Source: Candidatus Binatia bacterium (GTDB taxonomy: Bacteria > Verrucomicrobiota > Verrucomicrobiia > Limisphaerales > UBA8199). From it: a stretch of DNA of 64,000 bases. Both the position numbers and the translations under genes were made by a program. Where the stretch lies: NCBI GenBank assembly GCA_035566895.1, contig DATMQA010000088.1, positions 1 through 64,000 on the forward strand. Reading direction: 5' to 3'. Positions 3,202 through 19,057 of the stretch are shown in pieces. Each line of letters begins with the position of its first letter. Within the stretch, counting starts at the first letter, position 1. The notes under the pieces were generated by a model that saw nothing but the letters and a program-made list of their open reading frames with translations, did not search any database and was not told where the DNA came from.

Positions 3202-3222
3202 AGAGTTGCAAAACTAAATGAC

Positions 3223-3972
3223 TTGAGCACCGAAAACCCAACTGCAGCCACCGGCGCGCCGCGCGACGTCTTCGCCACCACTCATTGGACGGTGGTGCTG
3301 GCCGCCGGTCGCGGCAGGTCGCCCGAGGCTGAAGTTGCTCTGGAGGAATTGTGCCGGACGTATTGGTTCCCGCTCTACGTTTACGTTCGACGCCAAACGC
3401 CCACGCGCGAAGATGCGGAAGACCTGACCCAGGCGTTCTTTGCCCGCTTCCTGGAAAAGAATTACCTCGAAAAACTCACCAGCCAAAAAGGGAAATTCCG
3501 CGCTTTTCTCCTGGCCGCGCTGAAGCATTTTCTGGCCAATGAGTGGGACCGCGCCAGCAGGCAGAAGCGCGGAGGCGGTGTGGCGCCTCTCTCACTGGAT
3601 TGGCAGGACGCTGACGCGCGCTATCAAATTGAGCCGGCCGATAATCTGAGTCCCGACAAACTCTATGATCGCGCCTGGGCGGTGACCCTGCTGGAAAGGG
3701 TGCTGGCTCGCCTGCGCGATGAGAATGCGGCGGAAGACAAGGCGAGGTGCTTCAAACAATTGAAAGCGTTCCTGATGGTTGGCACGAACGCTATCCCCTA
3801 CGGCGAAGCCGCCGGCAGACTCAACTTAAGCGAAGGCGCGGTGCGGGTCGCCGTTCATCGCCTGCGGCGGCGCTACCGGGAGCTGCTCCGTGAGGAAATC
3901 GGCCAAACCCTCTCCGACGCCGCTGAAATCGCCGAGGAGATGCGGACCCTCTTTAGCGCCTTCGCCAATTGA
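3223..3972 (+). CDS. ECF-type RNA polymerase sigma factor (STK-associated Planctomycetes/Verrucomicrobia type)
   Basis: TTG start 22 nt after the kinase stop. N-terminal 'TTHWTVVLAA' motif. Sigma-70 region 2 (YWFPLYVYVRR) and region 4 (LNLSEGAVRVAVHRLRRRYRELL). Confidence 0.85.
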   Translation: MSTENPTAATGAPRDVFATTHWTVVLAAGRGRSPEAEVALEELCRTYWFPLYVYVRRQTPTREDAEDLTQAFFARFLEKNYLEKLTSQKGKFRAFLLAALKHFLANEWDRASRQKRGGGVAPLSLDWQDADARYQIEPADNLSPDKLYDRAWAVTLLERVLARLRDENAAEDKARCFKQLKAFLMVGTNAIPYGEAAGRLNLSEGAVRVAVHRLRRRYRELLREEIGQTLSDAAEIAEEMRTLFSAFAN

Positions 3973-4159
3973 GAAACCGCCGGCGGTCTCCTTCCACGCC
4001 TGGGGAATGGCGACCCTGCAGAAGTGTGCAGCAAACGCGCAGTTCATATCTGCTTCGAAATGAGCTATTAACCCCGGCAGACAATCCTTGGCTAATTCAT
4101 CTGCGTGAGCCTTTATGAGCGCAGATTAGCTCTGTAGCCGTTATTAGCGCTTCAACTGT

Positions 4160-7130: not shown

Positions 7131-8753
7131 TTAGGGCACTCGCAGCGTATAAAACTGCCGCAGGCTCGTTCCGATGGCGTTCGTGAAGGAGAATTTGCCG
7201 TTGGTGTCAAAACTCCCGTTCGTCAACACCACCCAGTTGGTGCGCGGCAATAGCAGGTTCGTCGAGATCAACACGCGATACGTGCCGCCCGGACCGCTGT
7301 TGTTCGTCCCGCTCAAGATAAAAGTTCCGCCGCTCACCGCAACGCGCTGGATCGTCGGCGCCGACAAAATGGAGGTGAAGGTAAACCTGTCCGCCGCTGT
7401 CAGGGCCGAGGTTCCATAACCAAAAATGGGCGCGTTGACATTGGCGTTGGGATTGCTGCTGATGTTGTCCACTTCGTTAGTGCCCGATTGAACCTTCACA
7501 TCCACCGTCCCGGAACCGCTGGGAATTGTCACCGAGATCTGGGTGTCGCCGAGCACGTTGACCGAGCCGGCGGCCGTGCTGCCAAAGAGCACCGACAGGC
7601 GCCCCGCCGCGCCCGAGAAGTTCTGGCCCTGAACGGTGAGAGCGCTGCCGAGCGGACCGTTGGCTGCGCTCAAGCCGGTCACGATGGGCATGAGGTTGAC
7701 AACGTCGAAATTGGTGGCCTGCAACTGCCTGATACCATTGAGGACATCGGTCATGTCCCAGGTGAGGCTGATGCCGTTGGTGGCGTTCACCGAGGCGGAC
7801 GCGCCCGTGACATACATGGCACTGCCGACATCCGCGAGGATGAGGCCGTATTGCTGCATGGCCCGGGCAAGGCTCTGAGACTGAGGACCCATCGTGCTGA
7901 TCAAAGCGTTGACGGCCGGCGTGTTCTTCAGGCGCAATCGGCCGCCAAAAGGCAAATTGGTGGCGCCCTGCGAAGTCGAAACTATGTGCGAGCCGGGAAA
8001 AACGTATTGTGGGTTAATATCGCCGGCCGGCAAGGTCATGCGCAGGGCGTGGTTGATGGCGCCCTGGCCTCCCTGCGCCACAGTCAACCCCTCATCGGGC
8101 CGGGCCAGTCCGGCCAGGATCGACAGTCCCGCGGCGTCCGCGGACGTCTCGCCGAGAGTGCGGAAGCTGTTCGCGTTAAAGTTCCAGACGGTTTCCTGGG
8201 CTGCGTGCCACTTGCCGTCCGTATGAGGAAGTTCAACGCCGCTCGTATTGGGAAACAAGGTCGTGTCGGATGGACGGGTCACCCCATACAGCTCAAAGCC
8301 GATGTTGTTGTCCTCGTCCCAAACGATCAGATGCGAGTCGCCGCGTTGACCCGTGTTGTAACCGCCCCCGTTGGGATTTGGTCCGTTTTGGTAATCGCCT
8401 TCAATTACGGCATTCGCCGGAATCGGCACCCCGACGATGTCACTTTCACCGGGATAATTGTCGATGATGACATTGATCTTCGTAGTGCTGTTGCCGTGGA
8501 CCACGTTGAAGGGAATCCCGTACAAGGGGCTGGCCCCATTGGAAGCACTATCCGCGCCCCAATCGGGGTGGATATGGATCGAGGAGCCGATGTGGGCGAT
8601 GATAGCTGCCGAATTCGTCGCCACTGGCGCGTTGCTGATGTCCTGGTTCCAGGGATAGTTCGTTGGATAGAGCTGGTTCCCAAGCAACGAAGCCAGTCCC
8701 GAGTGGACGGGCGTCAGCGCTGCACCTGTCGCCAAGGCCATCAGGCGCTTCAT
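7131..8753 (-). CDS. Secreted protein with IPT/TIG-like Ig domains and C-terminal '...FYTLRVP' sorting-like domain
   Basis: Start chosen at the internal ATG giving signal peptide MKRLMALATGAALTPVHSGLAS. 'LTVQGQNFSGAAGRLSVLFGSTAAGSVNVLGDTQISVTIPSGSG' IPT-like segment. C-terminal domain shared with two other proteins in the window. Confidence 0.75.
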   Translation of the reverse strand: MKRLMALATGAALTPVHSGLASLLGNQLYPTNYPWNQDISNAPVATNSAAIIAHIGSSIHIHPDWGADSASNGASPLYGIPFNVVHGNSTTKINVIIDNYPGESDIVGVPIPANAVIEGDYQNGPNPNGGGYNTGQRGDSHLIVWDEDNNIGFELYGVTRPSDTTLFPNTSGVELPHTDGKWHAAQETVWNFNANSFRTLGETSADAAGLSILAGLARPDEGLTVAQGGQGAINHALRMTLPAGDINPQYVFPGSHIVSTSQGATNLPFGGRLRLKNTPAVNALISTMGPQSQSLARAMQQYGLILADVGSAMYVTGASASVNATNGISLTWDMTDVLNGIRQLQATNFDVVNLMPIVTGLSAANGPLGSALTVQGQNFSGAAGRLSVLFGSTAAGSVNVLGDTQISVTIPSGSGTVDVKVQSGTNEVDNISSNPNANVNAPIFGYGTSALTAADRFTFTSILSAPTIQRVAVSGGTFILSGTNNSGPGGTYRVLISTNLLLPRTNWVVLTNGSFDTNGKFSFTNAIGTSLRQFYTLRVP

Positions 8754-8933
8754 ACGGCGTCTTTCTCGTCGCATTTTTCTCGAAACGTTGTGCCGGCATT
8801 GAAGCCCCCCAAGCACACGAAAGGGGACCGGCGCTCACACTCCGGGGCCGGCAGACGATTTCCCAAATGATACTCCCAAGGTGCAGGCTCATCCAATGAA
8901 ATTCTACGCAATACTGACTTCAGGGCGGTCAGG

Positions 8934-10373
8934 TCAATGGTCCAGGTTCCGTTGCCCCGCGGTTCTTTCCAATTTCTCAAGCCTTAACCTCAAGGCTTCA
9001 ATCTCGGCGTCCTTGGTTTTCACTTGCGCTTCGAGTTTTTGATTCAGTCCCTGAATGGCGGTCAGAGCGACGCCGCCTTCATCGACAATGCCGATGGTCG
9101 TGTCGCTGGCACCGAGACCAAAGGTTGCTTTGAAATCCTGCGCGGTCGGGCCGAGATGGCGGATATTTGGGACCTCGTTGGTGAAACGCCAGCTTTGGAT
9201 CGGCAACGCGACCAGCCTCGCCAGAATATCCTCCGGATTGACCCCGAGGAATCCGGTCTTGATGTTGCGGTCCGAACCGAGGGACGAGGAAATTATTAAA
9301 GTGTTGCCGTTGGTGCCGATGGTGACGCCGGTGCCGGCTGCTAGAATGACTCGGTCGCTTAATCCGTTGAGACTGGTCACAGCCTGGCCCGGTGAAAGGT
9401 CGGCCACGACACCGGCCGAGTAGGCGTAAAGCGCCTGGGGCGTCGGCGTGATGGGCAACGGCGGGGTGAGCGGAGTGAAACTGTTACCGTTGGGTGGCAT
9501 GACCGACATACTCAGCCAAAGCGGGTTGCCCATAAAAATGGTGGGGTTGAACGGCAACGGTGTGGTGAAAAGACCATTGACCACTTTCACCGCCTGGGTG
9601 ACCAACAAGCTTACGGGCAGGCCGTTGCTCCCGTCCAGCAGTTGGAAGGTAAAGTTGTACAGGCCGTTGCTCGGCGGCAACATGGGAATCGAATTGCAAG
9701 AGATGTTGCCCTGGAAACTCGGAAACGGCACTGGGACCGAATACGGAAGCTGGACGGGGTAGGCCCAATCCGGCGGCATGTCCGGCACGATGGCGGGAAC
9801 ATTGACGAGGGTCTCGTGGGCCTGGTTATTGCCATCCGTCCAGTCGTCGATGATGGTCAAGGTACCATTTTTTGGCTGTGTGTCCGAAAGCATTCCAAAG
9901 GTCGTGGCCGTCTTTCCGGGGGAAAGACAACCGGCACCAAACAGAAAAGTGACATCGCCCAGCGGCGTCAGTGTGCCCGAAGACACGTTGACAGTGCCGG
10001 TTCCATTGGTGAGCACGAGCACATCGTAGGTGCAGCTCAGCGGCCGGCTGAAATGGATCAAGAGTTTGACACAATGATTGGCCGCCACGGACATGCCGCT
10101 CAAGTCCAGGGAATAAACGTAAAAGACGTGGTCTTCCAAACGGACATTGTCAGCCTTATAGGACGCGACGCTGGTGACGACGCCGATTCCGGAAACCCCA
10201 GTCAACGTAAAGCTGTTGCTGGTGGTTAGGGGAGCTGGAACCAGCAGTGAATCGTCCCAGCATGGGCCGCCGGGAATGATGAGGGTCACATCGCCGACGG
10301 TCAACGAGCTGTTGGCACGCGTGGACGCAGCCACGCACGCGACGAGAAGAATTTGAACCAGGTATTTATTCAT
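8934..10373 (-). CDS. Secreted fibre-like protein with C-terminal intramolecular chaperone (peptidase S74 / tail-fibre chaperone-like) domain
   Basis: Start at internal ATG (10373) giving signal peptide MNKYLVQILLVACVAASTRA. C-terminus 'SDRNIKTGF...IRHLGPTAQDFKATFGLGASDTTIGIVDEGGVALTAIQGLNQKLEAQ...' followed by a coiled coil. Confidence 0.8.
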   Translation of the reverse strand: MNKYLVQILLVACVAASTRANSSLTVGDVTLIIPGGPCWDDSLLVPAPLTTSNSFTLTGVSGIGVVTSVASYKADNVRLEDHVFYVYSLDLSGMSVAANHCVKLLIHFSRPLSCTYDVLVLTNGTGTVNVSSGTLTPLGDVTFLFGAGCLSPGKTATTFGMLSDTQPKNGTLTIIDDWTDGNNQAHETLVNVPAIVPDMPPDWAYPVQLPYSVPVPFPSFQGNISCNSIPMLPPSNGLYNFTFQLLDGSNGLPVSLLVTQAVKVVNGLFTTPLPFNPTIFMGNPLWLSMSVMPPNGNSFTPLTPPLPITPTPQALYAYSAGVVADLSPGQAVTSLNGLSDRVILAAGTGVTIGTNGNTLIISSSLGSDRNIKTGFLGVNPEDILARLVALPIQSWRFTNEVPNIRHLGPTAQDFKATFGLGASDTTIGIVDEGGVALTAIQGLNQKLEAQVKTKDAEIEALRLRLEKLERTAGQRNLDH

Positions 10374-10411
10374 TGCTAAGTCCTTTCTCCAGGGAAGTTG
10401 TTCGTCACCGG

Positions 10412-10936
10412 CTAATGCCCGATGGTGGACGGGCCAAAAACCGATGTGATGGTCATCGGCTTTAAAATCGTCATGGTTTCGGTCGAATCGCTGGGTTGCA
10501 CACTGGCATTGAGGGCGATGGTGCCGCCGCTGGCCACGGCGCTCACGCCATTGGCCAGGGTGTTGTAGGGCTGGGAGTAGGTGCCAAAATAGAAGCCGAA
10601 GGGGCTGGAGTAATTGAAATCTACCCACACGGGGCCATAGAAGGTAACCGGGTCCGAAGAGATGCCATTGGCGATAACCCGCAGCGCGAACGTGCCCGGT
10701 GCATTGAAGACATTTGAGGGGATGGTCACCTCAGTGGTGACCATCCGCCCGCCGGTTTGCACGCTGGTAATGCTCCAATTGTAGGTGGTCCCGCAGGAAA
10801 CATTCCCCCCGCCGTCGGTGAAGGTGACAATGGGAAAGTTGCTGTCCATCTGAGCGTCGTCGCGGTAAGCGGCGCCAGAGCTGCAACCTTGTGCACAACT
10901 GCCGATTTTACCGGAGTTTTGCATGGGAGGTTTCAT
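10412..10936 (-). CDS. Hypothetical protein carrying conserved N-terminal 'MKPPMQNSGKIGSCAQGCSSG' leader (no classical signal peptide)
   Basis: ATG start. The first ~60 nt are ~85% identical to the start of the 11439..13811 gene, and the differences are synonymous. Confidence 0.7.
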   Translation of the reverse strand: MKPPMQNSGKIGSCAQGCSSGAAYRDDAQMDSNFPIVTFTDGGGNVSCGTTYNWSITSVQTGGRMVTTEVTIPSNVFNAPGTFALRVIANGISSDPVTFYGPVWVDFNYSSPFGFYFGTYSQPYNTLANGVSAVASGGTIALNASVQPSDSTETMTILKPMTITSVFGPSTIGH

Positions 10937-10976
10937 TGTTTGTTTGCCTTTCTCTTGGACGGTGCTCCGCTATTCC

Positions 10977-11426
10977 TCACGGGTTCATCAGCCGGAAAAA
11001 CCATTTGCCCGCTGGTTGAGTGAGGGTCAGATAATTCGTTCCGTTGCTGTTGGTGACGCCGCTGCTGGCCGACCAGCCGGCGGCTGCGGTAACGCTGCTG
11101 TTCTGCTGCAAGCTCCAGCTCGCAACGGCTTGCCAGTAGACCGTCACCGAATTGGTGCCTCGGCTGATGTAAAGGAGCGGCGCGCCCGGCGTTTGCACCG
11201 GCGCAATCAACGCCCAAAATCCGCCCGTGACTGAATAAGAGCCACCGGTCATCGGCCCGCCGGCATCGTGTTGGCCGATGGTGCCGCTGACCGCGTACGT
11301 TCCGCCGGTGCTGTTCATGCCACCGCCACCGGAGACTTTGTACCAGTCAATGCTGTAGCTTTGGGCGGTCGCGCGAAGGCACAGGGTAAAAGGCAAAAGG
11401 CACAAAAGAATGAGTTTGTATTTCAT
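10977..11426 (-). CDS. Small secreted protein ('SIDWYKVSGGGG...' N-domain plus shared C-terminal '...WFFRLMNP' domain)
   Basis: Signal peptide MKYKLILLCLLPFTLCLRATAQS. 12-bp gap to the upstream gene. Confidence 0.75.
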   Translation of the reverse strand: MKYKLILLCLLPFTLCLRATAQSYSIDWYKVSGGGGMNSTGGTYAVSGTIGQHDAGGPMTGGSYSVTGGFWALIAPVQTPGAPLLYISRGTNSVTVYWQAVASWSLQQNSSVTAAAGWSASSGVTNSNGTNYLTLTQPAGKWFFRLMNP

Positions 11427-11438
11427 GGTTATGCTCCT

Positions 11439-13811
11439 TCAATTTGACTTTTGGTTGCGAATGATGTTTTCCAGTGATACGAGTCGTTGTTGCAACGCCG
11501 CGTTTTCCGCGTCGCGGCGTTTCAATTCCTCCCTGAGCCTGGTGTTTTCGGAATCCACTTTCTGGTTCAACCCCTGAATCGCCGCCAGCGCTACACCTTC
11601 CTCGTCCACCGTGGCAATATGTTTATCGTCCAGGCCGACATTGAACGCCGCATAAAAGTCCTGCGCCATCGGGCCGAGATGGGGTGTGGCCAAATCGTTG
11701 GTATAATGCCAGCGCGTGATGGGCATCGCGGCCACCCGCTCCAAAACGGTCTTCGTATCCACCGGCTCGAACCCCGCCTTGACGTTCCGATCGCTGCTGC
11801 TGACAAAGGTGCCGCGCACCGTCAGGCCGGCACTGTCCAATAACAGCATGGTTGCGCCGATGGACCCGCTGTAGATGACAAAATTCGTCGTGGTCGCCCC
11901 CACATCCCATCGTTTGTTTGCATTCCCTCCAACCGTAAAGCGCAGTCGCGAAAAATCCGACGCGGTTTGCTGATCCAATTGCGCCTGTGGGAAGGAGTTG
12001 CCGCCGCTGCTGGTGACGTGCAGTTGCGCCTGCGGGTGATTCGTACCAATGCCGACACCGCCGCCGGCGTAAACCAGGAACTGGTTGGGTGCGCTCGAAC
12101 TGAAAGGGTACACTTCGCCATCCGACCAGATAAAGCAATCGTCATTCAGAGCCTGAGCGCCATTACCTGCCGCAAAGGAAGCAGCACCTTTGGCAACATT
12201 ACCCGCGCCGCCTGGCACCACCGCAGAAGCGCCGCTGGCAGTGTTGCCGTAGCCGCCGCCCACGGTCCCCTGTTGGCTGCTGGCGGTATTGTTATAGCCG
12301 CCGCTGACTGTCGAGTAATCCCCGCTGGCGGTGTTTTGGGTGCCCCCTCCCACCGTCGAGTAGCCGTAGCCCGTTCCGCTGGCCGTGTTGTAACTCCCCC
12401 CGCCCACGGTCGAGAAGCCAGAGGTTGGGATGCTGGAAGTGTTGTAGTAGCCTCCGGCCACGGTAGAGGCTTGGCCAATGGCGGCGTTGTGGTATCCACC
12501 GGCGACAGTTGCCATCACACCACTAGCGGTATTTTGAGCGCCACCGCCCACCGTGGTGTCATTGAGCGAGGCGGTGTTGCCAAACCCGCCCGCTACCGTC
12601 GCGTAGCTGAAACTGGCGGTGTTGCCGTAGCCTCCTCCCACCGTGGTGAAGCCGTAATGCCCCCCGCTGGCGGTGTTGCCAAGGCCGCCGCTAACCACAG
12701 ATGCATCGCCGCTGGCTACGTTCCCGGCGAAAATCCCGGCGCCATAACCGCCACCCCCGACGAACGAGCCGGAGCCGGTCGCAGAGTTCGAAACCCCGCC
12801 GCCCACCGTCGAATAACCGAGCAATGGCGTCGTGTAATAGTTATCCGAGCCGCTGGCAAGGTTGCCGGAGCCGCCGCCCACCGTCCCAAAGTCCGCGACT
12901 ACACTGTTGGTGCCGGGGCTGCCGAAATAATTGTTGGCACCGCCGCCGGCAATAGTCGCGCCATACACGCCCGCACCTACGGAATTGACCGCGGCACCAC
13001 CCGCCACGTTGACGATGCCTGAGTGGTTTGCATCATTGGCCGTCGGCTCCAGCCGCAAGGCACGGGTGCCGTTGATGTGCAATTCCAACGGTTGATAGTC
13101 CGTCGTGCCGACAAAGTTGCCATTGGTTGCGCTGGTGCCGGCGTTGCCGGCAATTTGCCAGGCGTTGCCCAACGCCGCCGCCGGCACGGTTCCGGTCGTC
13201 AATTGCGACGCGTTCAAGCCGGTCAACCCGCCGCCGTTGCCATTGAAACTGTCGCCTGGATTGGTCAGGTTGACCGCGCCGCCGTAGGTGCCACTGAGGC
13301 TCGCCGCCGGAATGGTCCCGCTTAGTCCCGCCGCGCTGGCGCCTTCGGCGAAAATGGCATAAGGCGTCGGCGTCAACTGCTGGCGCGGACTCAAGACCTT
13401 GAACGCTCCGACGTTGTTGGTCCGGACGGCGATTTGCAGCCAATAGGTGGTGCCGTCAAACACGCCGCCATAATCCAGCGTGATGGTAAACAGGCCGTTG
13501 CTCACCGCCACGGCCGCATTGGTAATCGGCCCGGCAAAAACAGTGCTGCCGGTACTAGTGAGATAAAGGCCAACGCGAATGTCGTAAAGGCCGTTGGCGG
13601 GATTGCCGCCGTCGTTTAGCTCGCCTTGATAGGTGAACGCAGTGCCCTGGGCTCGGACGGTTGAGGGTTGGCCAAAGAGCGTTGAGATTAACGCCACCGC
13701 CAGGACCGCACAGCGGGGAACGCCGCCGAACCGCCCGCCAGAGCTGCAACATTGCGCACCACCGCCGATTTTACCTGAATTTTGCATGGGAGTAACAACC
13801 ATGGGTTTCAT
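11439..13811 (-). CDS. Large secreted fibre/adhesin-like protein: conserved 'MKPMVVTPMQNSGKIGGGAQCCSSG' leader plus signal-like h-region, ~20 YadA-head-like Gly-rich repeats, C-terminal intramolecular chaperone (S74-like) domain
   Basis: Start placed at the internal ATG 13811. Repeats 'STVGGGxxNTASG'. C-terminus 'SDRNVKAGFEPVD...HLGPMAQDFYAAFNVGLDDKHIATVDEEGVALAAIQGLNQKV' followed by a coiled coil. Confidence 0.8.
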   Translation of the reverse strand: MKPMVVTPMQNSGKIGGGAQCCSSGGRFGGVPRCAVLAVALISTLFGQPSTVRAQGTAFTYQGELNDGGNPANGLYDIRVGLYLTSTGSTVFAGPITNAAVAVSNGLFTITLDYGGVFDGTTYWLQIAVRTNNVGAFKVLSPRQQLTPTPYAIFAEGASAAGLSGTIPAASLSGTYGGAVNLTNPGDSFNGNGGGLTGLNASQLTTGTVPAAALGNAWQIAGNAGTSATNGNFVGTTDYQPLELHINGTRALRLEPTANDANHSGIVNVAGGAAVNSVGAGVYGATIAGGGANNYFGSPGTNSVVADFGTVGGGSGNLASGSDNYYTTPLLGYSTVGGGVSNSATGSGSFVGGGGYGAGIFAGNVASGDASVVSGGLGNTASGGHYGFTTVGGGYGNTASFSYATVAGGFGNTASLNDTTVGGGAQNTASGVMATVAGGYHNAAIGQASTVAGGYYNTSSIPTSGFSTVGGGSYNTASGTGYGYSTVGGGTQNTASGDYSTVSGGYNNTASSQQGTVGGGYGNTASGASAVVPGGAGNVAKGAASFAAGNGAQALNDDCFIWSDGEVYPFSSSAPNQFLVYAGGGVGIGTNHPQAQLHVTSSGGNSFPQAQLDQQTASDFSRLRFTVGGNANKRWDVGATTTNFVIYSGSIGATMLLLDSAGLTVRGTFVSSSDRNVKAGFEPVDTKTVLERVAAMPITRWHYTNDLATPHLGPMAQDFYAAFNVGLDDKHIATVDEEGVALAAIQGLNQKVDSENTRLREELKRRDAENAALQQRLVSLENIIRNQKSN

Positions 13812-13964
13812 AGCGTTCACTCTGTCCTCAGTGCGTTGTTTCGCGGGAAAAAATATCAGCCCTCGGAAGTATTTTTGGAGGTTGAAACCAGGCCCCCTGG
13901 TATTGCCGCCCCGAAGGCGAACTCTCATCAACACCGTGGCTTCTCCGCGCTGCGGAATTCCGTG

Positions 13965-16900
13965 CTACGGCTCTGCGGTGATGGCCACGAGGAAGGGCTG
14001 GCCTCGAGTCGGTTTGTCCGACACAAAGTCGAACTGGCGTATGGGCACGTTTGGGAAGGGGTTTTCCCAGATAGTTTTGAACAGGCGGATGGCGTGGCCA
14101 CCGCGCCGGGCTGCTGGATTACTGCCGGCCCAGGCCAGGACGAAGCTCATGGGTTGCTCGTTGGGTTGAGTCCACCAATCGGCCATGTCTTTGCCGGTGA
14201 CGATCGGCAGTTCGACCTGGCGGCCATCGGCATAATGGAAGATGTAACTGCCAAGTTCGTCACCCGGACGGGCGCCGGCAGCGAGGATAGCGGCGTGCAG
14301 GAAATGCAGGTGCCGGCACTGCCGGCGGATCGGAATGTCCAGCACGTGGCTGGGATATGCCAGGCCGTTGGGGGCGCTCACCCCGATCTGGATCAGGCCG
14401 CGAACATCAAACTCAACCCCGCCGAATTTCTGCACGCCTCGCCGTAGTTCAGACAAGTTATTTTCCGCCGCTTTTGCGCTATGCCAGCTCTCGGTCAGCG
14501 GCGCGTTGTAATAGTCGGTCAGGTCGATCAAATTTGCGGCGGTGTCTGGGTCGCGGGGCGGAATGGTTTGTGCCAGTTCTTCCTTGCTGAAGGGACCTGC
14601 ATCCAGTTGCAGTACTGCCGGCCCGGTGGGCGGAGCATCGTCGGCGGCAGGAAACGGCGGGAGGCCCCAGTCCAGGTTCAACTTCATGAGTTCTTCCCCA
14701 ATGAAGCGCAAATCCCAAACATCGACCTGGCCGCTCCACTCGAAGGCGGCGAGCTTGGCGCCATCGGGACTGAAGCTGAGGCAACCGACGTGCGCGACCG
14801 TGGGCACTCGCAAAGTGGCCACCGGCTCACAGGTTGGGACCTTGAGAAGTTGAATCTCATAGGTCGCATGAACTGCCGCGAGCAGGCGGCCATCGGGGCT
14901 GAACGCCAGCGGATTGATTTCGGAGACCCGGTCGCCAGCCACGGATTGCGGCGAGGCTTCCCACGAGCCGGTTCTCCAAAGCTTCAACACAGTCATGTCG
15001 GCGGCGGCCAGCCAATGGCCATCAGGACTGAAGGCAACAAAAGCTGTGCCCCTGGCGGGCAGGCTGCGGATGAGTTGGCCGGTCGATACGTCGTACACCT
15101 TGACGCCTGTGCCCTTCCAGGTGCCGGTGGCAGCCCAGCGGCCGCCGGGATCAAAGGCGACGAATTGAGCGCCCGGATGGCCGCGCAGCTTGAGTATATT
15201 GGTCGGATTGTCCAAGTCCAACAGCAGTGGCTCATCCGTAACTTCCCTCGAAGCGAGGATCTTTTTGCCGTCGCGATCCAGCGCTGAGTAGCGAAACAGT
15301 TGATGGGCCATCAGGATTTGCGGGGCTCCGACGCGGAGGAACGAGCCGCGGGCCGTGGACTGGACCTCAAGGGGCCACCGGTAAAGGCCATCCGAAGTGC
15401 TCCCCAGAATGCCCAGCCCGCCATAGGTTTGAAAATGCGCCGAGCGGCAGGTGGCGGTGGGGATCAGACCGATTTGCTTGCCGGCGATCAGATCCCAGAA
15501 CCCTATCCCGCTGACCGTGCTGACGGCCACGAGGCGCCCATCTGGAGAGAAGTCCGCGCTCCACGGCCTGGGAGTTTCCGCAGGGCCAACGAGCCGCCGA
15601 TAACCGGTGCTATGAGCCACTTCGAGCAGCTTCGTGGTTTCACCTTCAACTGCGCACGCCAGTGTCCGGTCATCCGGACTGAAATGGAGTTCCGCGTCTT
15701 GGCTCTCGTACTCCACCAATTGCCGGCCCCTCGCGACATCCCACAGGCGCAGCGTATTGTCCCAACTCCCGCTGGCCAGCAAGTCGCCCTGCTGCGAAAA
15801 GGCTAGGGCCGTCAACCGCGCCTCATGGCCTGCCAGGCGAGCCTGCAGGCGCCCGGTCTGCGCCTCCCAAACCTCAATCTGGCCATCGAGTCGGCCGGTT
15901 GCCAGCAGAGCCCCATCGTGGCTCCAGGCCAGGAAACTCAGCTTGCCTGGCGATAGCAGGCTGGTGATGAGCTGGCCAGAGGCCAACTCCCAGATCCGCA
16001 CCGTCGAGCCGCCAAACTCCAGACCCGCCAGCCGCGTGCCGTCGGGGCTGACCCGCAGCAGACCGAGCTTGCCCTCGACGCGTAACCGCTTCAGGTCTTT
16101 CCCCGACTCAATCTCCTTAACCGAGACAGTGTCATCCGGATTGATGACCAATATCTCCTGGCCGTCGGGACTGAAATCCGGGTAGGCGCTACTGGCGAGG
16201 TCGAGCGCCAAGGCACCGCGACGGGTGAGGTCCCAAACCCGGCAACGCCACCCTCCGTTGGTGGTCAGGCAGGAAGCGGCCAGATAGCGACTGCGGGGGT
16301 CAAACCGGCGGACGATGAGCCCATTGGCAATATCACTGACGTCTTTCACGGGCAGGAAGTTTACCTCCTGGTCGTCCGCGACGCGCCGCACACTGAAGCC
16401 GGAGAGAGTTCGGTAAGCGTACAATTCGAAGGCGGTATCGAAGCACACGTTTTGAGCAGCCCAATGCGAAGGAAACCGCCAGCGCTTTTCTTCGCGCAAA
16501 TCCGGCAAGCCGAAGGCCGCGACGGCCGCCTCACTCAGGTCGGTCGAACGGTGAATCACTGCTGCCTTGCTGAGCGCTTCGAGACTTTCGAAACGTTGGC
16601 CGGCACGGCCGCTGAACTGCTTGGCGCGCGCTTCGCCCAGCAGAGCGTTGTAAAGGTGCTCTTCGGCTGCCGCCCGCTGTTTGGCTTCGCCGGTTCGAGC
16701 TCGCTCGGCCTCCTCACGCAGGCGGCCTTGTGCTCGCTCGGCCCGCCGCGCCCGGATCGCCTCCCAAGTACTCCCCGTCGTTCCCAGGACCAGCGCCAGG
16801 ACCACGGCGCCGGCGGCCGCAAAAGCAAGTTTGTTCCGGCGAACAAGTTTCTGGAATCGATACAGGTTGCTTGGGGGGCGGGCCACCACGGGTTCACTCT

Positions 16901-18188
16901 TCAAATGCCGCTGCAGGTCCATGGCCAGACCATTGGCGGTTTCATAACGCCGCGTCCGGTCCTTTTCCAGGCACTTCATCACGATCCAGTCCAGGTCCCC
17001 GCGGAGAACATTGATCAGCTCCTTCTTCTCGAGCAGCCGACGCGAGGACGCTCCACTCACCTCGGCTGTTTGGTTTTCGTTCTGTGGCCAGCCCCTCCCT
17101 AATCGGGCGGGCGTCTCGCCCGCGGAGGACTGCAGGCCAGAGGCCGGCGCCACTGATGCAGCGCTTAAGCCATTGGGCTCCGGCTTTGGACCGCGCTTTT
17201 CCCGCTTCGCGGGTTCCGCCCGTGCAAGTTCCAGGGTAAGCCGGGTGGAAGGGCGGAGCGGTTCTTTCTCTCGTATCGTTCGTCGCATCTCATCCAGCCC
17301 GGCCGACAAGAGTTCTTTCGCGTCAAACGGGGTCGTGCCGGTGAGTAATTCGTAGAGCAACACTCCGAGCGAGTAGATATCGGTACGGGTATCCACGTCC
17401 AGTCCCCTCAGTTCGGCCTGTTCCGGGCTCATATAGGCCGGAGTCCCGACGAACTGCTCGAACGACGTGAAGAGTGTTTGATCCGTCAATCGCCCCTCCG
17501 TGGCCTTGGCAATCCCAAAATCGATCACCTTGGGCATGGGCAGGCCGTCGTGAGCGGTCACCAGGACATTCGAGGGCTTGATATCGCGATGAATGATGCC
17601 TTTTTGGTGGGCATGCTGAATCGCCCGGCAGGCCTGCATGAACAGGTGAATCCGTTCCGCGGTCGAAAGATCATTCTCCTCGCAATAGTCGGTTATCTTG
17701 ACCCCCCGCACCAGTTCCATGACAAAGTAAGGCCGTCCGGTGTGGGTCGTGCCGGCGTCGAGAACCTTGGCGATGTTCGGATGGTCCATCAGGGCCAGCG
17801 CTTGGCGTTCCGCTTCGAACCTGGCTACCACCTTCTTGGTGTCCATGCCCAGCTTGATGACCTTGAGCGCCACCCGGCGACGCACAGGCTGCTCCTGTTC
17901 GGCCATATAAACCACACCACAGCCGCCTTCGCCAATTTGCTGGAGCAGTTTGTAATGGCCGATGCGGTCACCTGGCTTTTCTGCAATCAGGCCCCCGACC
18001 GCTTCCTGGCGAGGTTGTTCGGGCAGAATACCTTCACCTGTCTCATGGGCCTGGAGCAAGGCGCGCACGCGCGCCAGCAGGGCGGAGTCCTGGCCGCAAG
18101 CTCCCACCAGAAAGGCCGCGCGTTCATCGGGGCGAAACTCGATGGCCCGACTGAACAGGGCTTCCAGCCGCTCGATATTCGTACTCAT
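13965..18188 (-). CDS. Ser/Thr protein kinase with transmembrane segment and C-terminal WD40 beta-propeller repeats
   Basis: Start at ATG 18188 (MSTNIERLEALF). Kinase motifs HRDIKPSNVLV, DFGIAK, GTPAYMSPE. TM helix LAFAAAGAVVLALVLG. More than 10 WD40-like repeats (LASGSWDNTLRLWD, ...). Lies immediately downstream of an ECF sigma gene. Confidence 0.9.
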   Translation of the reverse strand: MSTNIERLEALFSRAIEFRPDERAAFLVGACGQDSALLARVRALLQAHETGEGILPEQPRQEAVGGLIAEKPGDRIGHYKLLQQIGEGGCGVVYMAEQEQPVRRRVALKVIKLGMDTKKVVARFEAERQALALMDHPNIAKVLDAGTTHTGRPYFVMELVRGVKITDYCEENDLSTAERIHLFMQACRAIQHAHQKGIIHRDIKPSNVLVTAHDGLPMPKVIDFGIAKATEGRLTDQTLFTSFEQFVGTPAYMSPEQAELRGLDVDTRTDIYSLGVLLYELLTGTTPFDAKELLSAGLDEMRRTIREKEPLRPSTRLTLELARAEPAKREKRGPKPEPNGLSAASVAPASGLQSSAGETPARLGRGWPQNENQTAEVSGASSRRLLEKKELINVLRGDLDWIVMKCLEKDRTRRYETANGLAMDLQRHLKSEPVVARPPSNLYRFQKLVRRNKLAFAAAGAVVLALVLGTTGSTWEAIRARRAERAQGRLREEAERARTGEAKQRAAAEEHLYNALLGEARAKQFSGRAGQRFESLEALSKAAVIHRSTDLSEAAVAAFGLPDLREEKRWRFPSHWAAQNVCFDTAFELYAYRTLSGFSVRRVADDQEVNFLPVKDVSDIANGLIVRRFDPRSRYLAASCLTTNGGWRCRVWDLTRRGALALDLASSAYPDFSPDGQEILVINPDDTVSVKEIESGKDLKRLRVEGKLGLLRVSPDGTRLAGLEFGGSTVRIWELASGQLITSLLSPGKLSFLAWSHDGALLATGRLDGQIEVWEAQTGRLQARLAGHEARLTALAFSQQGDLLASGSWDNTLRLWDVARGRQLVEYESQDAELHFSPDDRTLACAVEGETTKLLEVAHSTGYRRLVGPAETPRPWSADFSPDGRLVAVSTVSGIGFWDLIAGKQIGLIPTATCRSAHFQTYGGLGILGSTSDGLYRWPLEVQSTARGSFLRVGAPQILMAHQLFRYSALDRDGKKILASREVTDEPLLLDLDNPTNILKLRGHPGAQFVAFDPGGRWAATGTWKGTGVKVYDVSTGQLIRSLPARGTAFVAFSPDGHWLAAADMTVLKLWRTGSWEASPQSVAGDRVSEINPLAFSPDGRLLAAVHATYEIQLLKVPTCEPVATLRVPTVAHVGCLSFSPDGAKLAAFEWSGQVDVWDLRFIGEELMKLNLDWGLPPFPAADDAPPTGPAVLQLDAGPFSKEELAQTIPPRDPDTAANLIDLTDYYNAPLTESWHSAKAAENNLSELRRGVQKFGGVEFDVRGLIQIGVSAPNGLAYPSHVLDIPIRRQCRHLHFLHAAILAAGARPGDELGSYIFHYADGRQVELPIVTGKDMADWWTQPNEQPMSFVLAWAGSNPAARRGGHAIRLFKTIWENPFPNVPIRQFDFVSDKPTRGQPFLVAITAEP

Positions 18189-18278
18189 TGCTCGCTCGCC
18201 GCTCTCGTGGAGTAGTGCGCTTTTGAGAAGCAAAACGTCTCAGCCGAACCGCAAAAAACCTGTCCGCCCGCGAGAAAT

Positions 18279-18848
18279 TCAGCCACCGGTCTGCAATTCT
18301 GCCATCAGCCAGGCCCGGGCGAAGGCCCAATGCCGATTTGCCGTCGCCGGGGCAATCCCCAGAGCCTCAGCGGCTTCGGCAATGCTCAGGCCGGTGAAAA
18401 AGCGCAGCTTGACCAGTTGGGCCCGCTGCGGAGCTTCGGCCTCCAGCTTCTCCAACGCCTCGTTGACCCGCAGCAGCAGGTCGTCATCGGTGGTGATGGC
18501 GACGTCTAACTGGCTTAGATCAATCCGGACCAGGCCATGGCCGTGGCGCTCCCGGTGGCGCTTGCGAGCGCGGTCGATGAGGATGCGTCGCATGGCCTCG
18601 GCGGCGGCGCCAAAGAAATGGCCTCGGCCATTCCAATGTTCGTTGCCCGAGCCAACCAGCCGGAGCCACGCCTCGTGGACCAATGCTGTCGGCTGCAGGG
18701 TCTGGCCGGGAGCCTCCTGGGCCAGCTTCGCCGCCGCCAAGTGGCGGAGCTCCTTGTAAACCAACGGCAGCAACCTCTCCGCCGCCCGCTCATCGCCGGC
18801 GCCGGCAGCCTCAAGGACTTGTGTAACTTTTTCCGGAGCGGAGTCCAT
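18279..18848 (-). CDS. ECF-type RNA polymerase sigma factor (STK-associated)
   Basis: 189 aa. Region 2 'LLPLVYKELRHLAAAKL', region 4 'LVKLRFFTGLSIAEAAEALGIAPATANRHWAFARAWL'. 90 bp upstream of the kinase gene on the same strand. Confidence 0.9.
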   Translation of the reverse strand: MDSAPEKVTQVLEAAGAGDERAAERLLPLVYKELRHLAAAKLAQEAPGQTLQPTALVHEAWLRLVGSGNEHWNGRGHFFGAAAEAMRRILIDRARKRHRERHGHGLVRIDLSQLDVAITTDDDLLLRVNEALEKLEAEAPQRAQLVKLRFFTGLSIAEAAEALGIAPATANRHWAFARAWLMAELQTGG

Positions 18849-19057
18849 GCATAGTTCACCAACGGTTGACGGCTACTCAACGCCAGGGAACACTAATACA
18901 AATATTAGGACACAACCCGTTAGAACACAACCCTTTCGGCGGCAGAAACCTCGGCGCGCATGTCTGATTTTTGAGCTTGCCGACGGCGTAACGCGGATTT
19001 GCATTGGCGTGCTCTGGAGGCTGCGCGAGTGAAGCGCCGGAGGTCAACGCGGTTAAG

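What the first reader, a model, noticed from the sequence alone, without database searches (positions are those of the whole stretch)
13738..13811. Second copy of the conserved leader at the start of the large YadA-repeat fibre gene
Same element as 10874..10936 (see that finding). Here it is followed by the h-region 'RCAVLAVALISTLFGQPSTVRAQG', consistent with an N-terminally extended signal peptide. The ORF-track start at 13934 adds 41 unconserved residues; the internal ATG at 13811 is the more likely start.
Basis: seen in the sequence. Interest (0 to 1): 0.5.

Follow-up and report, generated by a model that had tools for sequence, protein, structure and literature searches.

The report
Private duplicated 5' leader on fibre gene
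Two neighbouring surface-protein genes in this uncultured bacterium begin with the same roughly 21-codon stretch. It looks like a one-off local duplication that gives the fibre gene its start codon and an unusually long signal-peptide head, not a conserved secretion leader, so it is ordinary.

Summary
The repeat is real. On the minus strand, 13811..13736 and 10936..10873 share ATGAAAC plus a 57-nt block that is 51/57 identical. Flanks fall to about 30% identity, and there is no third copy in the window.

The start call at ATG 13811 is supported. JGI and NCBI both call a 790-aa protein. The 41 upstream codons have no counterpart in 111 homologues, whose median presequence is 28 aa.

Gene A therefore has a 56-aa presequence: about 31 hydrophilic residues ahead of a family-typical h-region and an AQG|T cleavage site.

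It is not a conserved leader. An exhaustive HMMER search of 1.84 billion representatives found only gene B itself. Pfam (ESPR included) and Rfam found nothing, and the two copies share no RNA fold.

The other copy heads gene B. B is a 174-aa remnant of a Kelch-plus-Ig-like family, with no signal peptide and no Kelch part, and its first 31 residues model as disordered. The locus is rearranged relative to a syntenic relative.

Best reading: a small intra-locus duplication of a 5' coding end, weakly favoured B to A, which now supplies start codons. Interest is low.

The parts
13736..13811 (-). Leader copy A. Contains ATG 13811..13809 (MKP), a second ATG at 13802..13800, and 12 extra in-frame nt between 13805 and 13792. 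Also contains a third ATG at 13787..13785 (MQNSGK) and the 57-nt shared block 13792..13736. Encodes MKPMVVTPMQNSGKIGGGAQCCSSG.
   Evidence: GC is 0.49 and the codon score is -0.23 bits/codon, against +0.25 to +0.34 for neighbouring coding sequence.
13644..13735 (-). Rest of the A presequence. A short linker (GRFGGVP) is followed by a family-typical n/h/c signal peptide, RCAVLAVALISTLFGQPSTVRAQG. The predicted cleavage is AQG|TAFTYQG.
   Evidence: The hydropathy maximum is 3.16 at residue 38. The stretch aligns with the signal peptides of the homologues listed and with the L042 A-like protein from its residue 2.
11439..13811 (-). Gene A, 790 aa. It has the extended presequence, a conserved N-domain (GTAFTYQG...), UspA1/YadA-head-like G-rich repeats, and a C-terminal Peptidase_S74 intramolecular-chaperone domain.
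   Evidence: Pfam; PDB; JGI and NCBI gene calls.
13812..13934 (-). The 41 codons added by the ORF-track start at GTG 13934. They are probably non-coding spacer between the kinase stop (TAG 13967..13965, in frame) and gene A.
   Evidence: No counterpart in homologues. The codon score is 0.02 bits/codon, which is neutral. Not called as coding by JGI or NCBI. Against this: a GGAG lies 8 nt upstream of the GTG.
13825..13862 (-). Possible decayed copy of the 3' end of gene X. It aligns with 11010..10974 at 25/38 identity and is collinear with the leader.
   Evidence: The local alignment beat 478 to 479 of 500 dinucleotide shuffles (p about 0.04) under two permissive scoring schemes. It was not significant under the other two, the stringent one and the blastn-like one. 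Suggestive only.
10873..10936 (-). Leader copy B. Contains ATG 10936..10934, a second ATG at 10924..10922, and the shared block 10929..10873. Encodes MKPPMQNSGKIGSCAQGCSSG.
10412..10936 (-). Gene B, 174 aa. It is the leader followed by the C-terminal Ig-like and terminal domains of a family that normally begins with a Kelch propeller. It has no signal peptide.
   Evidence: Homologues. Family profile alignment starts at B residue 12. In the AF2 model, residues 1-31 have pLDDT below 50 and most of the rest is above 90. The hydropathy maximum is 0.82.
10977..11426 (-). Gene X, 149 aa with a signal peptide. It lies between the two leader copies. In a syntenic relative its homologue lies after the B-type gene.

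Best explanation
The 'leader' is a private, two-copy segmental duplication of a 5' coding end. It covers a start codon plus about 21-25 codons and arose while this surface-protein gene cluster was rearranged.

**In gene A.** The copy replaced the usual short MKxK n-region. Translation starts at ATG 13811, or at one of the two in-frame ATGs 9 or 24 nt downstream. The product has a 56-residue presequence. About 31 hydrophilic residues rich in Gly, Ser and Cys precede an ordinary Sec h-region and an AQG|T signal-peptidase site. The leader would therefore be removed with the signal peptide and take no part in the mature fibre.

**In gene B.** The same segment supplies the only upstream start for a fragment that has lost its signal peptide and Kelch domain. 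There it forms a disordered tail.

**Shown:** the repeat, its sharp limits, its absence elsewhere, the atypical presequence length of A, the truncation of B, and the rearranged synteny.

**Inferred:** that it is translated, that A is still exported and cleaved at AQG|T, and that the copy went from B to A.
For: **The repeat**
- 51/57 identity with about 30% identity in the flanks.
- Only two copies in 64 kb.
- Both copies are in frame with their downstream bodies, and the indel between them is 12 nt.

**Privacy**
- A degenerate codon pattern found only chance hits in 185,579 species genomes and in JGI metagenome contigs, and none in viral contigs.
- Exhaustive HMMER over 1.84 billion representatives found only P0121, which is B itself.
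- A's 90%-identity cluster has one member.

**A is atypical for its family**
- Median presequence is 28 aa against 56 in A, and A has no Met near the h-region.
- The L042 A-like protein aligns from its residue 2 to A residue 33 and starts MKTKLRSLF.

**B is a remnant**
- Its homologues continue upstream into a Kelch-type region. In L042 that is one gene broken only by scaffold Ns.
- B's C-terminus matches the family end.

**Rearrangement**
- L042 has the order A-like, Kelch-B, X-like, D-like. The window has A, X, B, C, D.

**Direction B to A (weak)**
- B residues G12, G17 and G21 fall on invariant or near-invariant family glycines. The permutation p is 0.013 for B and 0.14 for A.
- A possible decayed X 3' end lies upstream of A.

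**No sign of an RNA or known-family element**
- Rfam found nothing.
- Fold z-scores were +0.47, -1.60, +1.13 and -0.33, with different structures in the two copies.
- Pfam found nothing at E up to 10.
Against: - The copies are about 10% diverged, yet the boundaries are sharp, the frame is kept and half of the six changes are synonymous. That could mean purifying selection on a functional peptide or mRNA segment. The count is not significant: 3 of 6 synonymous gives p about 0.17 by my own binomial estimate.
- The block has 49-51% GC and atypical codon use in a 60% GC genome. This is not explained by a plain copy of native coding sequence. It fits either a nucleotide-level constraint near start codons or a foreign origin.
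- Against a distant homologue, hand-counted nucleotide identity drops from 26/30 just after the block to 12/30 inside it (sequence). The block could therefore be foreign to B as well, and the direction of transfer is unresolved.
- The rest of the genome could not be read, so further copies are not excluded.
- Proteins carrying the leader could hide behind 50%-identity cluster representatives that lack it. Gene A itself does.
Confidence: 0.6

Rival explanations
1. The block is a selected N-terminal peptide module. It would be a lineage-specific analogue of an extended signal peptide region that modulates targeting or the timing of export. Alternatively it would be a tag recognised by another factor and shared by two co-transcribed cluster proteins.
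For: It sits at the extreme N-terminus of both genes, in frame, with an in-frame 12-nt indel. Three of the six substitutions are synonymous, and each copy has two Cys although at shifted positions. In A it precedes a normal signal peptide by about the length reported for autotransporter extensions, roughly 25 residues (PMC2805444).
Against: Only two copies are known anywhere. One of them is on a protein with no h-region that is a truncated remnant. The block has no hydrophobic H1-like segment; hydropathy stays at or below 0.7 over residues 1-30. There is no ESPR or other Pfam match. It models as disordered in B. None of 111 A-family homologues has it.
Confidence: 0.13
2. The block is conserved at the nucleotide level as a translation-initiation or regulatory segment of the mRNA. 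It would be an AT-rich, weakly structured 5' coding ramp with two or three in-frame AUGs, or a shared target for a small RNA or RNA-binding protein that co-regulates A and B.
For: GC is 0.49-0.51 against 0.60 for the window, and the codon score is -0.23 to -0.25 bits against +0.25 to +0.34 for the adjacent coding sequence. The 57-nt blocks fold no better than shuffles (z +1.13 and -0.33), as expected for an unstructured start region. Neither gene has a well-spaced Shine-Dalgarno sequence, unlike X and C (read).
Against: With only two sequences, no covariation test is possible. Rfam found nothing. AT-rich gene starts are common and need no duplication. No regulator or partner RNA was identified.
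Confidence: 0.12
3. The two direct repeats are substrates for deletion or switching. Recombination between them would excise the body of A together with X (2,875 bp) and place B behind A's upstream region.
For: The repeats are in direct orientation and flank a discrete segment of the cluster.
Against: The repeats are only 57 nt long and 10% diverged. No recombinase lies in the cluster (gene list). Two independent assemblies give the undeleted arrangement around copy B. The product would be expression of a signal-less fragment.
Confidence: 0.03
4. The longer ORF from GTG 13934 is the real gene, and the motif is internal to the protein.
For: A GGAG lies 8 nt upstream of GTG 13934. The frame is open from the kinase stop codon. 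The codon score of the 41 codons is neutral at 0.02, better than the other two frames.
Against: The 41 codons have no counterpart in any homologue. Both public annotations start at 13811. In B the same motif must be N-terminal. The presequence would be 97 aa long.
Confidence: 0.07

Closest known systems
Extended signal peptide region (ESPR) of type V secreted proteins, Pfam PF13018
   Same: In A, an N-terminal extension lies ahead of an otherwise classical Sec signal peptide. The protein carries YadA/UspA1-head-like repeats. The extension length is similar to the roughly 25 residues reported for autotransporters (PMC2805444).
   Different: There is no sequence match to ESPR and no hydrophobic sub-region in the extension. 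The protein has no beta-barrel translocator and ends in Peptidase_S74. The motif is not conserved beyond two genes of one genome. One of those two genes has no signal peptide.
Small segmental duplication or gene-conversion tract that creates chimeric 5' gene ends
   Same: Two same-strand copies lie 2.9 kb apart with sharp boundaries. They are joined to unrelated downstream sequences, are absent from homologous genes elsewhere, and sit in a locus whose gene order differs from a relative.
   Different: The donor and the mechanism are not identified. The unusually low GC of the tract is not explained by this alone.
Verrucomicrobial 'tail fiber domain-containing' surface proteins with a Peptidase_S74 C-terminal chaperone
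   Same: Gene A has the family N-domain (GTAFTYQG...), G-rich repeats and the S74 domain. NCBI names it 'tail fiber domain-containing protein'.
   Different: Family members start with a short MKxK n-region about 28 aa before the cleavage site. A has 56 aa.

Membership tests
ESPR (extended signal peptide region, PF13018) | Sequence match to the ESPR profile | tested here: not met
   Pfam scan of full-length A at E up to 0.01 and of the first 69 aa of A and 44 aa of B at E up to 10. No ESPR hit.
ESPR (extended signal peptide region, PF13018) | [quoted passage not shown] | tested here: inconclusive
   Met in A: a 31-33-residue extension followed by an h-region and AQG|T. Not met in B, which has no h-region (maximum hydropathy 0.82). 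The extension has no hydrophobic sub-region.
ESPR (extended signal peptide region, PF13018) | Carried by type V secreted proteins with a C-terminal beta-barrel or YadA anchor | tested here: not met
   The C-terminus of A is Peptidase_S74. No autotransporter or YadA_anchor domain was found.
ESPR (extended signal peptide region, PF13018) | Recurs across many proteins and taxa | tested here: not met
   Only B itself was recovered from 1.84 billion representatives. DNA pattern scans gave only chance hits.
Sec-type cleavable signal peptide (gene A) | Positively charged n-region, a hydrophobic h-region of about 10-15 residues, and small residues at -3 and -1 of the cleavage site | tested here: met
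   The n-region has K2, K14, R27 and R33. The h-region is CAVLAVALISTLF, with hydropathy 3.16. A-Q-G|T aligns with the AQG|T of 111 homologues. No SignalP-type predictor was available, and cleavage has not been tested experimentally.
Intragenomic segmental duplication | Two or more copies with high identity, abrupt loss of similarity at both ends, and absence from orthologous or homologous positions | tested here: met
   Identity is 51/57 inside the block, against 18/60 and 16/60 outside it. The block is absent from A-family and B-family homologues.
Structured cis-regulatory RNA (riboswitch or leader) | Match to a curated RNA family, or a stable shared secondary structure | tested here: not met
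   Rfam at E up to 1 found nothing in 10000..15000. Fold z-scores ranged from -1.60 to +1.13, and the two copies fold differently.
Trimeric autotransporter adhesin (YadA family) | YadA-like head repeats | tested here: met
   Residues 412-538 of A match the UspA1 head, 3pr7 at E 9.5e-16 and 3ntn at E 0.0043. Pfam Hep_Hag itself was not reported.
Trimeric autotransporter adhesin (YadA family) | C-terminal YadA membrane anchor | tested here: not met
   The C-terminus matches Peptidase_S74 (E 6.5e-09) instead.

The most novel reading that the evidence does not exclude
The 57-75-nt block is a portable start module kept by selection in two co-transcribed genes. It would be an AT-rich, multi-AUG, unstructured 5' coding segment whose peptide is discarded with the signal peptide in A. 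It would set or co-regulate translation initiation, or delay Sec targeting of a very large trimeric fibre, as a lineage-specific functional analogue of ESPR that evolved independently in Verrucomicrobiota.
Probability: 0.1. Interest if true: 0.45.

Novelty: new member of a known kind. Interest (0 to 1): 0.15.

Why it matters
**Annotation.** The finding fixes the likely start of a 790-aa fibre gene. It also warns against reading a two-copy local repeat as a conserved secretion leader.

**Evolution of the locus.** It gives a small documented case of how a rearranged surface-protein cluster can patch truncated or re-joined genes with a shared start-codon segment. It also shows that a Sec signal peptide in this family may tolerate about 30 extra N-terminal residues, if A is in fact exported.

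**If selection were shown.** It would be an independent, non-proteobacterial example of an extended signal peptide on a protein with YadA-head repeats. The present evidence does not support that.

Tried and rejected
**Searches for more copies**
- A leader-only word-index protein search returned 'no candidate'. This was a false negative. P0121, P0185 and P0186 carry the leader and are in the collection. I do not use as evidence.
- A degenerate codon pattern scan of genome contigs gave one hit, a chance match in a Limnohabitans MAG with an in-frame stop.
- The same approach on metagenome contigs gave 39 hits. None is followed by AQxCSSG.
- Viral contigs gave no hits.

**RNA, family and context checks**
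- Rfam on 10000..15000 found nothing.
- RNA folding of both copies showed no shared or unusually stable structure.
- NCBIfam gave no hit for A, B or C. X had only a far-sub-threshold match.
- Tandem Repeats Finder found nothing in gene A.
- The promoter and terminator scan found nothing on the gene strand.

**Ideas rejected**
- A frameshift joining B to gene C. Gene C has its own start and signal peptide, MNKYLVQILL, and is called separately.
- An assembly artefact. The copies differ at 6 positions, and an independent Logan assembly is identical across X, B and the start of C.

**Inconclusive**
- Upstream similarity between the A spacer and the X 3' end was not significant under two of four scoring schemes (the stringent and the blastn-like one) and marginal under the two permissive ones.
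- A Foldseek search of the B model against the PDB gave only weak Ig-like, filamin and IPT matches, all with E above 0.001.
- A literature search for a verrucomicrobial signal-peptide extension found nothing relevant.
Full report
**1.

All genes discussed are on the minus strand. Gene A begins ATGAAAC (13811..13805). It then has 12 extra nucleotides, followed by a 57-nt block (13792..13736). A second gene, B, begins ATGAAAC (10936..10930), followed directly by the same block (10929..10873).

- The block is 51/57 identical.
- Ungapped identity is 18/60 immediately downstream and 16/60 upstream of the first ATG, which is background level.
- A 27-nt core pattern with up to three mismatches matched only these two sites, with none expected in 100 shuffles.
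- Sensitive blastn and tblastn scans of the 64-kb window found no third copy.

The peptides are MKPMVVTPMQNSGKIGGGAQCCSSG in A and MKPPMQNSGKIGSCAQGCSSG in B. The six substitutions are three synonymous third-position changes and three first-position Gly/Ser/Cys exchanges. The indel is a multiple of three.

**2. Local gene map**

Reading 5' to 3' on the minus strand:

| Gene | Coordinates | Size | Features |
|---|---|---|---|
| Ser/Thr kinase-WD40 | 18233..13965 | about 1,407 aa | Kinase and WD40 domains |
| A | 13811..11439 | 790 aa | Extended presequence, fibre domains |
| X | 11426..10977 | 149 aa | Signal peptide |
| B | 10936..10412 | 174 aa | Leader, no signal peptide |
| C | about 10373..8934 | 479 aa | Own signal peptide MNKYLVQILL, Peptidase_S74 |
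| D | 8753..7131 | 540 aa | TIG-domain protein |

- An early suspicion that B and C are one frameshifted gene is wrong. C has its own start and is called separately in public annotation.
- The source contig is public (JGI sample 3300050821, 144 kb). There, A is called at 790 aa and B at 174 aa.
- The same sequences are in NCBI as HWX20207.1 ('tail fiber domain-containing protein') and HWX20205.1.
- An independent Logan assembly is 100% identical over the region that includes copy B.

**3. What gene A is**

- The C-terminus matches Peptidase_S74, the intramolecular chaperone of endosialidase and tail spikes (E 6.5e-09).
- Residues 412-538 match the head domain of the trimeric autotransporter UspA1 (3pr7, E 9.5e-16).
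- 'YadA-repeat fibre' is therefore fair for the repeats. There is no YadA anchor, so A is not an autotransporter.
- Residues 57-158 form a domain that is abundant in Pedosphaera and Limisphaerales-type Verrucomicrobiota.

**4. Where gene A starts**

- Among 111 homologues that begin with Met, the distance from Met to the G of the AQG|TAFTYQG cleavage motif has a median of 28 aa. 85 of them fall between 25 and 34 aa.
- Only six are 45 aa or longer. Five of those have an internal Met at the normal distance, so they are over-extended start calls.
- A has 56 aa counted from ATG 13811. Its Met closest to the h-region is 48 residues before that G.
- A syntenic A-like gene (L042) starts MKTKLRSLF, with an in-frame stop seven codons upstream. 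It aligns from its residue 2 to residue 33 of A.
- In B the homologous ATG is the first possible start of the ORF.
- One point in favour of GTG 13934 is a GGAG 8 nt upstream. The codon score of the 41 codons is neutral (0.02 bits/codon).

I conclude that 13811, or the in-frame ATGs at 13802 or 13787, is the start. That makes the presequence of A about 28-31 residues longer than the family norm. The h-region (hydropathy 3.16) and the cleavage motif are family-typical.

**5. It is not a conserved leader**

- An exhaustive HMMER search with a profile of the two leaders against 1.84 billion cluster representatives found one protein, P0121. That is B itself, taken from the Logan assembly.
- Codon-degenerate DNA scans of 185,579 species genomes, the JGI metagenome contigs and IMG/VR returned only chance matches. 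None of them is followed by AQxCSSG.
- Pfam, which includes ESPR, gave nothing even at E up to 10.
- Rfam gave nothing.
- The two copies fold differently and no better than shuffles.

The word-index search returned nothing, but it missed known positives and I disregard it.

Two limits remain. Members could hide behind 50%-identity representatives that lack the leader, as A itself does. The rest of the source genome could not be read.

**6. What gene B is**

- B's homologues continue upstream of the region aligned with B. The family consensus there is ...AGKPTIxSIxxNxDGSYHLTGTLFNGISQGAAYGDDAQMDSNYPLVRFTDGSGNVYYGRTYNWSSTSVQTGG.
- On long contigs the B-like part is preceded by a Kelch-type ORF. 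In L042 the two parts are one gene interrupted only by scaffold Ns.
- B has the family's natural C-terminus but lacks the Kelch part and any signal peptide (hydropathy maximum 0.82).
- An AF2 model built on 49 sequences is confident for most of residues 32-174. It is unstructured (pLDDT below 50) for residues 1-31, which include the leader.
- Structural matches are only weak Ig-like, filamin or IPT hits.
- Another fragment of the same family (P0181, 98 aa) occurs in the same sample.

**7. Rearrangement and direction of copying**

L042 has the order A-like, Kelch-B, X-like, D-like. The window has A, X, B (without Kelch), C, D. The leader therefore marks two junctions that are new relative to that relative: the front of A's signal peptide, and the front of truncated B.

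Unambiguous family homology in B begins exactly where the repeat ends (...CSSG|AAYRDDAQMD).

Evidence that B was the donor:
- The ten residues before that point (GSCAQGCSSG) place Gly at the three invariant or near-invariant family glycine columns and Ser at one family Ser column of GTLFNGISQG. The permutation p is 0.013 for B and 0.14 for A's version.
- A 38-nt stretch upstream of A (13862..13825) resembles the last codons of X, which lie upstream of B. It is 25/38 identical, with p about 0.04 under permissive scoring and no significance under the other two schemes.

Evidence against B as donor:
- Against L042, hand-counted nucleotide identity falls from 26/30 just after the block to 12/30 inside it (sequence).
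- The block is compositionally odd in both genes. GC is 0.49-0.51 against 0.60 for the window, and the codon score is about -0.24 bits against about +0.3 for neighbouring coding sequence.

The direction, and any third source, remain open.

**8. Mechanism I commit to**

I put about 0.6 on the following. This is a by-product of local rearrangement that now acts as a start-codon patch.

- In A it lengthens the n-region of a Sec signal peptide and is removed with it at AQG|T.
- In B it heads a signal-less remnant.

The rivals are:

| Rival | Confidence |
|---|---|
| A selected N-terminal peptide module, ESPR-like in effect | 0.13 |
| A nucleotide-level translation or regulatory segment | 0.12 |
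| The long ORF from GTG 13934 | 0.07 |
| A deletion or switching substrate | 0.03 |

The main facts a pure by-product model leaves unexplained are the low GC of the block and its preservation at about 90% identity with sharp edges.

**9. Comparison with known systems**

- In layout, A resembles proteins with an ESPR: an extension of about 25 residues ahead of a classical signal peptide (PMC2805444), on a protein with YadA-head-like repeats.
- Membership fails on sequence, on the missing hydrophobic sub-region, on the missing beta-barrel anchor and on recurrence.
- It fits best as an ordinary small segmental duplication that creates chimeric 5' gene ends.

**10. Verdict**

The feature is real and the start call is correct. 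The interpretation as a conserved leader is overstated. Interest is low, at 0.15.

Noticed in passing
window 11439..13811 and 10412..10936: NCBI labels the source MAG 'Candidatus Binatia bacterium' (HWX20207.1, HWX20205.1). The few homologues of A and B that carry an organism name are Verrucomicrobiota (Pedosphaera parvula, Verrucomicrobiae, Limisphaerales); most hits are unnamed. The taxonomic label or the binning looks doubtful.
   Followed up: partly
window 11439..13811: Gene A combines UspA1/YadA-head-like repeats (residues 412-538, E 9.5e-16 to 3pr7) with a phage-tailspike-type Peptidase_S74 C-terminal chaperone, and has no membrane anchor. That is a mixed architecture of adhesin head and tail-fibre chaperone.
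   Followed up: partly
window 10412..10936; L042 1890..3672: Gene B is the C-terminal Ig-like and terminal domain of a Kelch-containing family. Its weak fold hits include the C-terminal domain of a glyoxal oxidase. It has lost its Kelch part and signal peptide. A second fragment of the family (P0181, 98 aa) is in the same sample.
   Followed up: partly
window 7131..13811 versus L042 71..6403: Gene order differs from a syntenic relative. L042 has A-like, Kelch-B, X-like, D-like. The window has A, X, B, C, D. Gene C (479 aa, Peptidase_S74) contains an internal segment 36% identical to the A-type N-domain.
   Followed up: partly
window 13825..13862 versus 10974..11010: The spacer upstream of A may hold a decayed copy of the last codons of gene X (25/38 identity, shuffle p about 0.04 under permissive scoring only).
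   Followed up: yes
window 13932..13967: The kinase stop codon TAG (13967..13965) is in frame with the gene A ORF. A GGAG lies 8 nt upstream of GTG 13934, which explains why an ORF track picks the long form.
   Followed up: partly
window about 562..4000 and 13965..19000 (gene list): The fibre cluster is flanked on both sides by a sigma-factor-like gene next to a Ser/Thr kinase gene. One pair is ECF sigma plus kinase-WD40. The other is a Sigma70_r4_2 protein plus an 879-aa kinase. This suggests kinase-linked ECF control of the cluster.
   Followed up: no
tool behaviour: The word-index protein search with the two-leader alignment reported no candidate, although three proteins carrying the leader are in that collection. 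Negative results from very short, Gly/Ser-rich queries in that tool should not be trusted.
   Followed up: yes
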